From: a virus
Taxonomy: Duplodnaviria > Heunggongvirae > Uroviricota > Caudoviricetes
Reading direction: 5' to 3' (one strand)
DNA: 12,767 nt
Virus record (IMG/VR): IMGVR_UViG_2526164619_000005
Coordinates: 1-12,767 of that record
Shown here piece after piece: positions 8,014 through 10,781 of this stretch. The notes beneath the pieces are model-generated. The model was not told the origin of the DNA, ran no database searches, and saw nothing but the letters and a program-made list of their open reading frames with translations. The position numbers were made by a program, and so were the translations under genes. The number at the start of each line of letters is the position of its first letter. Position 1 is the stretch's first letter.

Positions 8014-8211
8014 GGGATTTTCTCGCTGAAAGGGGTTGTTAAGGAGTAACGGGTTCTTCGGGTTTGCTTCCGGCTGACTGACTGGCGCTGATTTTCTCAG
8101 CGGCCCTTTTATCAATCTGCCTGCACCAGAAATCGCGCACAGCCCTGTGAGGTAGCCTGAGTTTAACGGACACTCCTTCCTGAAATAGAATGGCATCAGA
8201 AGGAGCTAATA

Positions 8212-8499
8212 ATGAGCAGAAAAAACCAACGTTACTCTAAAGAGTTCAAAGCCGAAGCTGTCAGAACGGTTCTTGAAAATCAACTTTCGATCAGTGAAGG
8301 CGCTTCCCGATTATCCCTTCCTGAAGGCACTTTAGGACAATGGGTTACCGCCGCCAGAAAAGGGCTCGGTACTCCTGGTTCCCGCACGGTGGCTGAACTG
8401 GAATCTGAAATTCTGCAACTGCGTAAGGCGTTAAATGAAGCTCGCCTTGAGCGAGATATATTAAAAAAGCAACAGCGTATTTTGCACAGGAGTCGCTGA
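8212..8499 (+). CDS. IS600-like orfA with an altered C-terminus (95 aa)
   Basis: MSRKNQRYSKEFKAEAVRTVLENQLSISEGASRLSLPEGTLGQWV...ERDILKK, then QQRILHRSR stop. The usual family tail (ATAYFAQESLKNTR) is encoded in the -1 frame from the A_AAA_AAG site at 8463-8469. Confidence 0.75.
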   Translation: MSRKNQRYSKEFKAEAVRTVLENQLSISEGASRLSLPEGTLGQWVTAARKGLGTPGSRTVAELESEILQLRKALNEARLERDILKKQQRILHRSR

Positions 8500-8548
8500 A
8501 AAATACGCGTTAATCGAACAATGGCGACAACAATTTCCCATTGAAGCG

Positions 8549-9368
8549 ATGTGTCAGGTATTTGGTGTATCCAGGAGCGGTTATTACAACTGGGTACAGC
8601 ATGAACCCTCAGACAGAAAACAAAGTGATGAGCGGCTAAAACTGGAGATTAAGGTGGCACATATCCGCACTCGCGAAACATATGGAACCCGGCGGCTCCA
8701 GACGGAGCTGGCAGAGAATGGCATCATCGTTGGTCGTGACCGACTGGCACGTCTTCGTAAGGAGCTAAGGCTACGCTGTAAGCAGAAACGCAAGTTCAGA
8801 GCGACTACGAACCCGAACCACAATCTGCCAGTTGCGCCAAATCTGCTGAACCAGACGTTCGCTCCTACAGCACCAAATCAGGTCTGGGTGGCGGACCTGA
8901 CGTATGTTGCCACACAGGAGGGATGGTTGTACCTCGCTGGCATCAAAGATGTTTATACGTGCGAAATTGTCGGCTACGCCATGGGAGAGCGCATGACAAA
9001 AGAGCTGACAGGTAAAGCCCTGTTTATGGCGCTCAGGAGCCAGCGCCCACCTGCCGGGCTAATCCACCACTCTGATCGAGGTTCACAGTACTGCGCATAC
9101 GATTACCGGGTCATACAGGAGCAGTCTGGTCTGAAAACATCAATGTCGCGTAAAGGTAACTCGTTACGACAACGCTCCGATGGAAAGCTTCTGGGGAACG
9201 CTGAAAAATGAGAGCCTGAGCCACTATCGTTTTAATAACCGGGATGAAGCCATCTCAGTAATACGGGGATACATTGAGATTTTCTACAATCGTCAGCGTC
9301 GTCACTCTCGTCTGGGGAATATCTCCCCGGCAGCCTTCAGGGAAAAATATCATCAGATGGCTGCTTAA
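8549..9368 (+). pseudogene. IS600-like orfB (DDE transposase catalytic domain), frameshifted
   Basis: 8549-9211 reads MCQVFGVSRSGYYNWVQ...HHSDRGSQYCAYDY...SMSRKGN then goes out of frame; 9180-9368 continues MESFWGTLKNESL...KYHQMAA in another frame. An extra base lies near 9161-9164 (aactcgttacgac where the conserved KGNCYDNAP motif needs aactgttacgac). Confidence 0.75.
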
Positions 9369-9392
9369 AAAAAGAACAAATGGTAGTGTCCG

Positions 9393-10781
9393 CTATTGCC
9401 AGTACACCTCACAGTACATTGACCAGGATTTCGCGCTGTTATTTTTCTCAATTCGCAGAGCTTTATTGCCGCTGTCATCAACCAGTGTGCGTCTGCCATA
9501 CATACCGTCCCAGCCATAAGGTTTCAGCTGATTGTCTGTAGCTTTTTTGGCATCGTAAAAAATTACAGACTCTGAGGTGGTAACCGGCCTGTCTGGAACA
9601 ACCACCCCGGCAGTACCATTAACAAACGCAGAAGACTTACCCGCGCAGCTCAGAATCGCCGTTGCCAGACGGTCGGAAATAATCCCACGGCGAGCCCATG
9701 AACTGAAATGGCTCGCCCTGTCCTGTGACGTCCAGGTGGCTGAGCTGTCACGCCATTTCGAACCGTAATAACCGATACCCGGAATGTCCGGGTCTTCTTC
9801 CGGTTTGTTCGTCGGCATATTCACCCCGTTCTCATCGGTCATGAACGGTACGAAATGGATATTCTTTTCCGTTTTATTTTTATAGCTGCCGTACACCGTC
9901 TGGTACGTGGATTCGTTCTTCTGCTTCCAGAAATACGTCGTGTCCCCGCATATCCAGGGAACACCGCCAGCAGAGCCACCGACGCACTGGCCTGCCATAT
10001 CCGCCAGGTCTGCACGGAATTTATCAACCAGCGCACCAAACTGTGCGGCATGATTTGCCGGCGTACCGCCAAAATCAAATTCCCCCTGCATCCACACCAC
10101 GGCAAACAGCACATTTTTCGGGTTCTTCTCCAGTGCCGCTTTTGTTCGACCGATAAGGTCCTTATACAGCGGCTTGTCCACACCCCAGCGGGTTGAATTC
10201 TCCGAGGCACCACTCGCGTCACTGTATGTGCCATCAGCTCCGGTGGTGAACGCTGAACCACCACGACAGCACGGAACCAGCAGAATGCCCGCATTCGCCG
10301 GTATAAACGGCAGCAGTTTTTTGGCGATATGCAGCCCCTGCCCCACGGTTCCGTACTGCCCCTTTGACAGGTCCGCTTTCGGATGGTTAAGACGGCTCAT
10401 GTCCTGCACATCATGCAGACAATGGTCCGCCGGAATGATGTCGTTATATTTGCATGCTGCACCGCCCGGTGTCACCGTACTGCGACGCGCCAGTTGCTTA
10501 ATACGCGGGTCCGGACGGTCATATGTCCCCGGCAGCGGAAGGCCTTCACCATACGACATGCCGTTTGACTGCCCTGCCAGAACCACAACAAAGTAATACT
10601 CCGGGTCGCTGGTGGCGCTGATTACTGCACCTTCTGCTGCAATCGCCTGCATCAGAGTATAAGGGGTTATGGCCACCGGACTACCAAACGGCTGCCAGCC
10701 CTCTTTCAGTTTATGTGTCAGCTTTTCCGCAAGATCTGACGGCGACGCCGCCCTGACAACATCATAGTGTTTAAAAGCCAT
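9393..10781 (-). CDS. nanS: NanS-p-like prophage sialate O-acetylesterase (DUF1737 N-terminus plus SGNH/SASA esterase domain), 462 aa as it stands
   Basis: MAFKHYDVVRAASPSDLAEKLTHKLKEGWQPFGSPVAITPYTLMQAIA..., then VVVLAGQSNGMSYGEG (GQSN esterase motif). GGGAGG ribosome-binding site. The last six codons and the stop lie inside the IS600 right inverted repeat (9393-9411). Confidence 0.8.
   Translation of the reverse strand: MAFKHYDVVRAASPSDLAEKLTHKLKEGWQPFGSPVAITPYTLMQAIAAEGAVISATSDPEYYFVVVLAGQSNGMSYGEGLPLPGTYDRPDPRIKQLARRSTVTPGGAACKYNDIIPADHCLHDVQDMSRLNHPKADLSKGQYGTVGQGLHIAKKLLPFIPANAGILLVPCCRGGSAFTTGADGTYSDASGASENSTRWGVDKPLYKDLIGRTKAALEKNPKNVLFAVVWMQGEFDFGGTPANHAAQFGALVDKFRADLADMAGQCVGGSAGGVPWICGDTTYFWKQKNESTYQTVYGSYKNKTEKNIHFVPFMTDENGVNMPTNKPEEDPDIPGIGYYGSKWRDSSATWTSQDRASHFSSWARRGIISDRLATAILSCAGKSSAFVNGTAGVVVPDRPVTTSESVIFYDAKKATDNQLKPYGWDGMYGRRTLVDDSGNKALRIEKNNSAKSWSMYCEVYWQ

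What the first reader, a model, noticed from the sequence alone, without database searches (positions are those of the whole stretch)
8040..9411. IS600-like element inserted into the 3' end of the nanS-p-like gene; the IS supplies the stop codon
The esterase ORF runs into the IS right inverted repeat and ends six codons inside it (...CEVYWQ stop at 9393-9395). On the far side of the IS, the same reading frame continues for about 35 codons (RAVRDFWCRQIDKRAAEKISASQSAGSKPEEPVTP) and stops at 8039-8041, just before the next gene. That suggests the native C-terminus was replaced by IS sequence. The immediate flanks (ctg vs cag) are not an exact 3-bp duplication.
Basis: seen in the sequence. Interest (0 to 1): 0.45.

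Follow-up and report, generated by a model that had tools for sequence, protein, structure and literature searches.

The report
IS600 insertion plus flanking deletion
An ordinary IS600 jumping gene cut off the end of a prophage sialic-acid esterase gene in Shigella flexneri, and in this strain a further 709 bases next to it were lost, so the short reading frame on its far side is the tail of a different small gene, not the esterase's missing end.

Summary
The sequence-level observation is correct. A complete 1264-bp IS600 copy lies at 8148-9411. The minus-strand nanS-p-like ORF (10781..9393) runs into its right inverted repeat and stops at an IS-encoded TAG. The flanks are CTG and CAG.

The 35 codons beyond the IS (8042-8146, stop 8039-8041) are not the esterase's native C-terminus. 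They are 100% identical to residues 26-60 of a separate 60-aa DUF1378 protein.

Against an uninterrupted E. coli locus, the window lacks 709 bp: the last 164 esterase codons (most of the lectin-like jelly-roll domain, PDB 6YP6), the 139-bp spacer and the first 74 nt of the DUF1378 gene.

The window is a whole contig of Shigella flexneri K-315. Two other Shigella assemblies (S. flexneri 1485-80 and chromosome CP026766.1) carry IS600 at the same site with a perfect CTG/CTG duplication, followed by the rest of nanS-p and an intact DUF1378 gene.

The history is therefore an ancestral simple insertion, then a K-315-specific 712-bp deletion flush with the IS600 left end. The shared reading frame is a 1-in-3 coincidence. 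This is routine IS-driven prophage decay and of low interest. The residual caveat is assembly collapse of two IS600 copies.

The parts
8148..9411 (+). Complete IS600 copy (1264 bp). Transposase genes are on the + strand, antisense to the prophage late genes.
   Evidence: 99.4% identity over 1264/1265 positions to RefSeq-annotated IS600 in E. coli. Pfam HTH_Tnp_1, HTH_21, rve and rve_2 on its ORFs. Terminal inverted repeats.
9385..9411 (.). IS600 inverted repeat at the transposase-distal end. It contains the TAG (9393-9395) that terminates the esterase ORF.
8148..8174 (.). IS600 inverted repeat at the transposase-proximal end. The K-315-specific deletion starts flush with its outer base (8148|8147).
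8212..8499 (+). IS600 orfA (95 aa here, 100 aa in the orthologous copies). The slippery run at 8463-8468 is A6 instead of A7.
   Evidence: The A6 is private to this contig and lies in a homopolymer, so it may be a sequencing error.
8549..9368 (+). IS600 orfB (rve/DDE integrase core), split into 220-aa and 62-aa ORFs by an extra C at 9162.
   Evidence: The orthologous copies in L007 and L008 are intact (272 aa / 385-aa fusion).
9393..10781 (-). Truncated nanS-p-like sialate O-acetylesterase ORF, 462 aa. It has 457 native residues (DUF1737 capsid-binding domain, the full NanS-like catalytic domain and about 46 residues of the C-terminal domain) plus EVYWQ from the IS.
   Evidence: Annotated as EIQ25825.1 SFK315_0784.
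8039..8147 (-). 3' remnant of a separate DUF1378 gene: the last base of codon 25, codons 26-60 and the stop. The first 74 nt, which encode the hydrophobic N-terminus, are deleted.
   Evidence: Pfam DUF1378 positions 25-58 of 59, E=1.6e-15. 100% identical to the C-terminal 35 aa of WP_000142783.1.
8147..8148 (.). Deletion point. 709 bp of the uninterrupted locus are missing here (L001 2916-3624), equal to 712 bp of the IS-bearing relatives (L008 12635-13346).
7768..8013 (-). DUF826 gene, intact. It is the next gene of the late/lysis cluster.
7476..7691 (-). Class II holin S gene (context: nanS-p - DUF1378 - DUF826 - S - DUF1327 - R - Rz late cluster).

Best explanation
The region records two successive events in a decayed lambdoid prophage of Shigella flexneri.

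Step 1, shown. IS600 inserted into the nanS-p-like esterase gene after codon 456/457, duplicating the target CTG. This separated the DUF1737 and catalytic domains from most of the C-terminal lectin-like domain. It also created a 462-aa ORF that ends five codons into the IS. This state is preserved in S. flexneri 1485-80 and in chromosome CP026766.1.

Step 2, shown as a difference; the mechanism is inferred. In the K-315 lineage, the 712 bp immediately outside the transposase-proximal IS end were lost. This segment comprised the duplicated CTG, the remaining 164 esterase codons, the 139-bp spacer and the first 74 nt of the DUF1378 gene. The IS now abuts codon 25/26 of the DUF1378 gene.

A deletion with one boundary exactly at an IS terminus and the IS retained is the signature of an IS-associated adjacent deletion. 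I think the most likely route (about 55:45) is a second IS600 copy inserting in direct orientation at the CAG in the DUF1378 gene, followed by homologous recombination between the two copies. That fits the copy-out-paste-in mechanism of IS3-family elements. The other route is a one-step transposase-mediated intramolecular event. Both give exactly this product.

Consequences, inferred. The esterase loses its carbohydrate-binding module but keeps its catalytic domain. The DUF1378 gene is dead. The apparent continuation of the reading frame is a coincidence.
For: IS identity and ends.

Breakpoints against the uninterrupted locus L001 (E. coli FORC_069):
- The left flank aligns up to L001 2915 and the right flank from L001 3625 (97.0% and 99.0% identity), leaving 709 bp unaccounted for.
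- Gene content of the gap comes from the RefSeq annotation: esterase 1501-3411, DUF1378 gene 3551-3733.
- The same gene order occurs in phage Min27.

The far-side ORF is DUF1378.

Ancestral state:
- The same 462-aa product (461/462 identical) occurs in two other Shigella assemblies.
- There IS600 is 1264 bp and flanked by GTACTG|IS|CTGTGATATT. This is a perfect CTG duplication, followed by a 174-aa DUF6645 ORF and a full DUF1378 gene.
- A second IS600 in L007 shows CCC/CCC, confirming that the element makes 3-bp duplications.

Domains: catalytic domain at residues 72-393 matches NanS 3PT5; C-terminal domain at residues 426-630 matches NanS-p 6YP6; the break is at residue 472.

Background: IS-driven deletion between homologous IS copies is described as a general feature of Shigella genome decay (PMC7373316).
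Against: - The window is one contig of a draft assembly, and its right junction (IS|CAGGGCTG) was found nowhere else: not in 5,426 complete E. coli genomes, the species-representative genomes, metagenome contigs or viral contigs. The deletion therefore rests on a single assembly.
- No genome with an IS600 at the CAG site, the predicted two-copy intermediate, was found. The two mechanisms cannot be told apart from the product.
- This IS copy carries two private frameshifts. If real, they would make it unable to act in cis. At least the A6 may be a homopolymer sequencing error.
Confidence: 0.85

Rival explanations
1. A simple IS600 insertion near the 3' end of nanS-p, with the 35 in-frame codons beyond the IS being the displaced native C-terminus of the esterase.
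For: The frame is continuous if the IS is removed precisely.
Against: - The far-side codons are identical to residues 26-60 of a separate DUF1378 protein and match Pfam DUF1378, not any part of NanS-p.
- Intact esterases continue for 164 more residues of unrelated sequence (DIAADKAKLL...) that match PDB 6YP6.
- 709 bp are missing.
- There is no target-site duplication, although the orthologous insertion in two other strains has one.
- Frame continuity has a 1-in-3 chance expectation.
Confidence: 0.01
2. Assembly artefact. K-315 really has two direct IS600 copies, one in nanS-p and one in the DUF1378 gene, with the 709-bp segment between them. The draft assembler collapsed them into one copy and skipped the segment.
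For: - The window is a 12.8-kb contig of a draft assembly that begins inside another IS600 fragment and ends in IS1.
- The junction is unique to this assembly.
- The contig carries several homopolymer indels that suggest modest sequence quality.
Against: - The exact 174-aa ORF encoded by the missing segment is on record for only two contigs, 1485-80 and CP026766.1. None is from K-315.
- Collapsed repeats normally break contigs rather than bridge them.
- The contig reads through three other IS elements in an order consistent with the relatives.
- Even if true, this state would simply be the predicted intermediate of the two-copy recombination route.
Confidence: 0.1
3. The deletion came first and IS600 later inserted at the pre-existing deletion junction, or the deletion is unrelated to the IS.
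For: The lack of a target-site duplication would not by itself exclude an unrelated deletion.
Against: - The left junction is base-for-base the same as in two strains that keep the full right-hand sequence with a CTG duplication. Insertion therefore preceded deletion.
- An independent insertion at the identical nucleotide is improbable.
- The deletion boundary coincides exactly with the IS terminus.
Confidence: 0.03

Closest known systems
IS3-family insertions in nanS-p of Stx2a (pro)phages (Pascal et al. 2023, PMC10462455), including the 'CTR3' variant in which an IS modifies the C-terminal end
   Same: An IS3-family element sits within the nanS-p gene of a lambdoid prophage late region, and the protein's C-terminal region is altered by IS sequence.
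   Different: - There the elements best match IS1203/IS629 or ISEc8, and IS600 is not mentioned.
- Here the host is Shigella flexneri and the prophage carries no stx.
- Here the insertion is followed by a flanking deletion into the next gene.
IS-mediated gene loss in Shigella (Hawkey et al. 2020, PMC7373316)
   Same: IS elements disrupt coding sequences and promote deletions between homologous IS copies. IS600 is one of the expanded IS in Shigella.
   Different: That is a genome-wide survey. This particular locus is not described there as far as I checked.
IS150-flush deletions of the rbs operon in E. coli B (Cooper et al. 2001) and IS629-adjacent deletions / IS-excision enhancer in O157 (Ooka et al. 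2009; Kusumoto et al. 2011)
   Same: Deletions with one boundary exactly at the end of a resident IS3-family element. For rbs this was explained by insertion of a second copy followed by recombination. This rests on my own knowledge; only the titles of the 2009 and 2011 papers were seen in a reference list.
   Different: Not tested here. IEE-type events usually accompany IS excision, whereas here the IS is retained. I did not check whether K-315 carries iee.
Naturally processed NanS-p (gp84 of phage phi24B)
   Same: [quoted passage not shown] 2020). The truncated Shigella product is similar in domain content.
   Different: Here the loss is genetic. The break lies about 46 residues inside the C-terminal domain rather than in the linker, and activity is untested.

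Membership tests
IS600 (IS3 family) | About 1264 bp and near-identical in sequence to reference IS600 | tested here: met
   1264 bp. 1257/1265 positions identical to copies annotated as IS600 in RefSeq E. coli genomes.
IS600 (IS3 family) | Imperfect terminal inverted repeats with 5'-TG...CA-3' ends | tested here: met
   TGAGGTAGCC... / ...GTACACCTCA. 30-nt arms, 73% complementary.
IS600 (IS3 family) | orfA (HTH) and orfB (DDE/rve) joined by -1 programmed frameshift at an A-rich slippery site | tested here: inconclusive
   The domains are present. This copy has A6 instead of A7 at the slippery site and an extra C at 9162 that splits orfB. The orthologous copies in L007 and L008 are intact. The A6 may be a homopolymer sequencing error.
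IS600 (IS3 family) | 3-bp target-site duplication | tested here: not met
   CTG versus CAG in the window. The feature is met (CTG/CTG) at the same insertion in L007 and L008, and CCC/CCC at another IS600 copy in L007. The mismatch therefore reflects the later deletion and does not argue against the element being IS600.
NanS-p prophage sialate O-acetylesterase | N-terminal DUF1737 domain | tested here: met
   PF08410, E=1.2e-15, residues 3-50.
NanS-p prophage sialate O-acetylesterase | SGNH/SASA catalytic domain homologous to E. coli NanS | tested here: met
   PF03629, E=2.6e-11. The 97%-identical intact homologue aligns to NanS 3PT5 over residues 72-393, all upstream of the break at 472.
NanS-p prophage sialate O-acetylesterase | C-terminal lectin-like jelly-roll domain (DUF6645, PDB 6YP6) | tested here: not met
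   There is no DUF6645 hit on the window protein. The intact homologue has it at residues 483-594 (Pfam) and 426-630 (6YP6). The break is at 472 and the remainder is deleted.
NanS-p prophage sialate O-acetylesterase | Esterase activity on Neu5,9Ac2 | not testable with these tools
   Needs an enzyme assay.
DUF1378 small phage protein | About 60-aa protein covering the whole PF07125 profile, encoded between nanS-p and the DUF826/holin genes | tested here: not met
   Only profile positions 25-58 of 59 are present. The first 74 nt of the gene are deleted. It is a gene remnant in the expected position.

The most novel reading that the evidence does not exclude
The IS-truncated esterase (capsid-binding DUF1737 domain plus the full NanS-like catalytic domain, without the carbohydrate-binding module) might be a functional, selectively retained sialate O-acetylesterase in a Shigella flexneri lineage. 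It would mimic genetically the autoproteolytically processed form of phage NanS-p. The ORF is kept intact in three strains, with one amino-acid difference. The divergence is too small to test for selection, and the prophage has lost its Q/early region, so expression is doubtful.
Probability: 0.1. Interest if true: 0.25.

Novelty: already known. Interest (0 to 1): 0.1.

Why it matters
It matters little beyond annotation.

- SFK315_0784 is a truncated nanS-p pseudogene or variant, not a 'hypothetical protein'.
- The small ORF at 8039-8173 is a DUF1378 remnant.
- The locus is a clean worked example of insertion followed by a flush IS-adjacent deletion in Shigella prophage decay, with the intermediate state preserved in sister strains.

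It is also a caution that frame continuity across a mobile element does not show that the two sides were once one gene.

Tried and rejected
- I searched for either junction elsewhere. As 120-bp queries, neither junction is spanned in any of 5,426 complete E. coli genomes.
- Exact junction patterns gave no hits. The left junction was absent from species-representative genomes and metagenome contigs. The right junction was absent from species-representative genomes, metagenome contigs and viral contigs.
- The E. coli and phage hits that covered 84-89% of the region (H1, H26, H27) turned out to be IS600 copies at other positions, upstream of or in the 5' part of nanS-p. They are not the same event.
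I used the cluster look-up instead.
- Ooka et al. 2009 (PMC2765283) is not held, so statements about IS629-adjacent deletions rest on memory.
- I considered IEE-mediated deletion. It fits poorly because the IS is retained, and I did not test for iee.
- I considered using the distribution of SNPs within the IS to detect a recombinant (hybrid) copy. The three private differences are uninformative.

Full report
**What is there**

The window is the whole of contig AKMY01000008.1 (assembly GCA_000268165.1), which is Shigella flexneri K-315. On the minus strand it carries the late region of a lambdoid prophage remnant:
- a DNA methylase gene
- tRNA-Met, tRNA-Arg and tRNA-Arg genes
- a nanS-p-like esterase gene (DUF1737 + SASA)
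- an IS
- a short ORF
- genes for DUF826, a class II holin, DUF1327, a lysozyme and Rz

The IS occupies 8148-9411 and is 1264 bp long. It has TG...CA ends and imperfect inverted repeats, with HTH_Tnp_1 and rve ORFs on the plus strand. It is 99.4% identical over its whole length to copies annotated as IS600 in RefSeq E. coli genomes. It is IS600 itself, not merely IS600-like.

**Check of the observation**

- The esterase ORF (10781..9393) crosses the junction at 9412|9411 and reads ...KSWSMY-C-EVYWQ-TAG, with the stop at 9393-9395 inside the inverted repeat.
- The Cys codon is TG|T. An intact homologue also has Cys there (TG|TGAT), so 457 residues are native and five are new.
- If the 1264 bp are removed precisely, the frame continues through RAVRDFWCRQIDKRAAEKISASQSAGSKPEEPVTP to a stop at 8039-8041.
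- The flanks are CTG and CAG.

**What the far side really is**

The 35 codons match Pfam DUF1378 at profile positions 25-58 of 59 (E=1.6e-15).

In uninterrupted loci the gene order is esterase, spacer, DUF1378 gene, DUF826 gene, holin gene. In E. coli FORC_069 (locus L001) the esterase is 636 aa, the spacer is 139 bp and the DUF1378 protein is 60 aa. The order is the same in phage Min27.

The DUF1378 protein of L001 is MTFIHQVMLYFCTAVCVLYLLSGGY|RAVRDFWCRQIDKRAAEKISASQSAGSKPEEPVTP. The part after the bar is identical to the window's far-side codons.

The window's left flank aligns to L001 up to position 2915 and its right flank from 3625, at 97.0% and 99.0% identity. So 709 bp are missing:
- 164 esterase codons (DIAADKAKLLLEKGG... 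to the end)
- the 139-bp spacer
- the first 74 nt of the DUF1378 gene

The esterase and the DUF1378 remnant share a frame across the gap only by coincidence, with a 1-in-3 chance.

**What the esterase lost**

The intact homologue matches E. coli NanS (PDB 3PT5) over residues 72-393. It matches the solved C-terminal domain of NanS-p (PDB 6YP6) over residues 426-630. Pfam DUF6645 covers 483-594. The break lies at residue 472.

The window's product therefore keeps the DUF1737 domain, which a recent preprint identifies as a capsid-binding domain. It also keeps the full catalytic domain. It loses nearly all of the lectin-like jelly-roll module, which is proposed to bind carbohydrate.

**Order of events**

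A 462-aa protein differing at one residue, and ending in the same CEVYWQ, is encoded in S. flexneri 1485-80 (AMGB01000032.1, L008) and in a complete 4.68-Mb Shigella chromosome (CP026766.1, L007).

In both, IS600 is at the identical nucleotide position and is flanked by GTACTG|IS600|CTGTGATATTGC. This is a perfect CTG duplication. It is followed by the remainder of nanS-p (a 174-aa DUF6645 ORF), the spacer and a full-length DUF1378 gene. A second IS600 in L007 has CCC/CCC flanks, which confirms the 3-bp duplication habit of the element.

K-315 lacks exactly L008 12635-13346, a stretch of 712 bp made up of the duplicated CTG and the 709 bp. The deletion begins at the first base outside the transposase-proximal IS end. 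The insertion is therefore ancestral and shared, and the deletion is later and, so far, specific to K-315.

**Mechanism**

A deletion flush with the terminus of a retained IS is the classical footprint of an IS-associated adjacent deletion. Two routes give this exact product.
- Route a: a second IS600 copy inserts in direct orientation at the CAG in the DUF1378 gene, and the two copies then recombine.
- Route b: a single intramolecular transposase-mediated event.

IS3-family elements move by copy-out-paste-in through a circular intermediate (established knowledge). That makes route (a) somewhat more natural, and I put it at about 55:45. It is also the explanation given for IS150-flush rbs deletions in E. 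coli B (from memory).

Deletions between homologous IS copies are described as a general feature of Shigella genome decay (PMC7373316). I found no genome with the predicted two-copy intermediate.

**Caveats**

The deletion rests on one draft contig. Its right junction occurs nowhere else in the collections searched. An assembler could have collapsed two IS600 copies and skipped the segment.

Against that, the exact 174-aa ORF of the missing segment is on record only for the two other strains, not for K-315. I give assembly collapse about 10%.

The K-315 IS copy has two private frameshifts: A6 instead of A7 at the slippery site (8463-8468) and an extra C at 9162. Most private indels of this contig lie in homopolymers, so the A6 at least may be a sequencing error. 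The extra C is not in a homopolymer.

**Comparison with what is known, and verdict**

IS3-family insertions within nanS-p are already described for Stx2a phages, including one that alters the C-terminal end (PMC10462455). IS600 expansion and IS-driven gene loss in Shigella are well documented.

This is an ordinary instance of a known process involving a known element. Interest is low.

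Noticed in passing
window 1-244: A second, partial IS600 copy (IS nt 72-315), inverted relative to the full copy and 100% identical to it. The contig starts exactly at the edge of the A-run slippery site. At 245 the fragment abuts an IS66-family end (GTAAGCGTAAACTGACC), so an IS66-family element appears to have inserted into IS600.
   Followed up: partly
window 245-2900 (ORFs 748-1098, 1129-1833, 1772-2158, 2155-2721): An IS66-family element whose main transposase is split into three ORFs. The 99.4%-identical copy in CP026766.1 encodes an intact 530-aa protein. 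The two indels lie in short homopolymers at 1783 and 2056.
   Followed up: partly
window 3014-4189 (-): An IS110-family transposase gene downstream of the lysis cassette. It is present at the same place in S. flexneri 1485-80 but absent there in CP026766.1. This suggests K-315 is closer to 1485-80.
   Followed up: no
window 12039-12048: A 10-bp tandem duplication (TCAGTGCCAG), private to K-315, splits the N6/N4 DNA methylase gene into two ORFs (12008-12430 and 11560-12090).
   Followed up: partly
window ~7151: A 20-bp deletion relative to 1485-80, between short CTGAAGACT direct repeats at the 3' end of the DUF1327 gene. The protein is 110 aa here and 114 aa in the relatives.
   Followed up: no
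window 11270-11519 (-): Three tRNA genes (Met-CAT, Arg-TCG, Arg-TCT) upstream of nanS-p, where Stx phages carry their tRNA cluster. There are no stx genes between them and nanS-p.
   Followed up: no
L007 13419-14719 and L007 3795-6394: In CP026766.1 the DUF1378 gene is itself interrupted, 72 bp downstream of the K-315 deletion end, by an IS3-family element with IS629-like ends (TGAACCGCCCCGGG) and a GTC duplication. Another IS600 copy in L007 (CCC/CCC duplication) spans 2600 bp and so carries a nested insertion. The nanS-p to holin interval is a repeated IS target.
   Followed up: partly
window ~12417-12767: The contig ends in an IS1 copy (InsA-like ORF 12472-12747). In the relatives IS1 directly abuts the methylase gene and a phage integrase next to potC/potD-like genes, so the early region of the prophage, including Q, is gone.
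   Followed up: no
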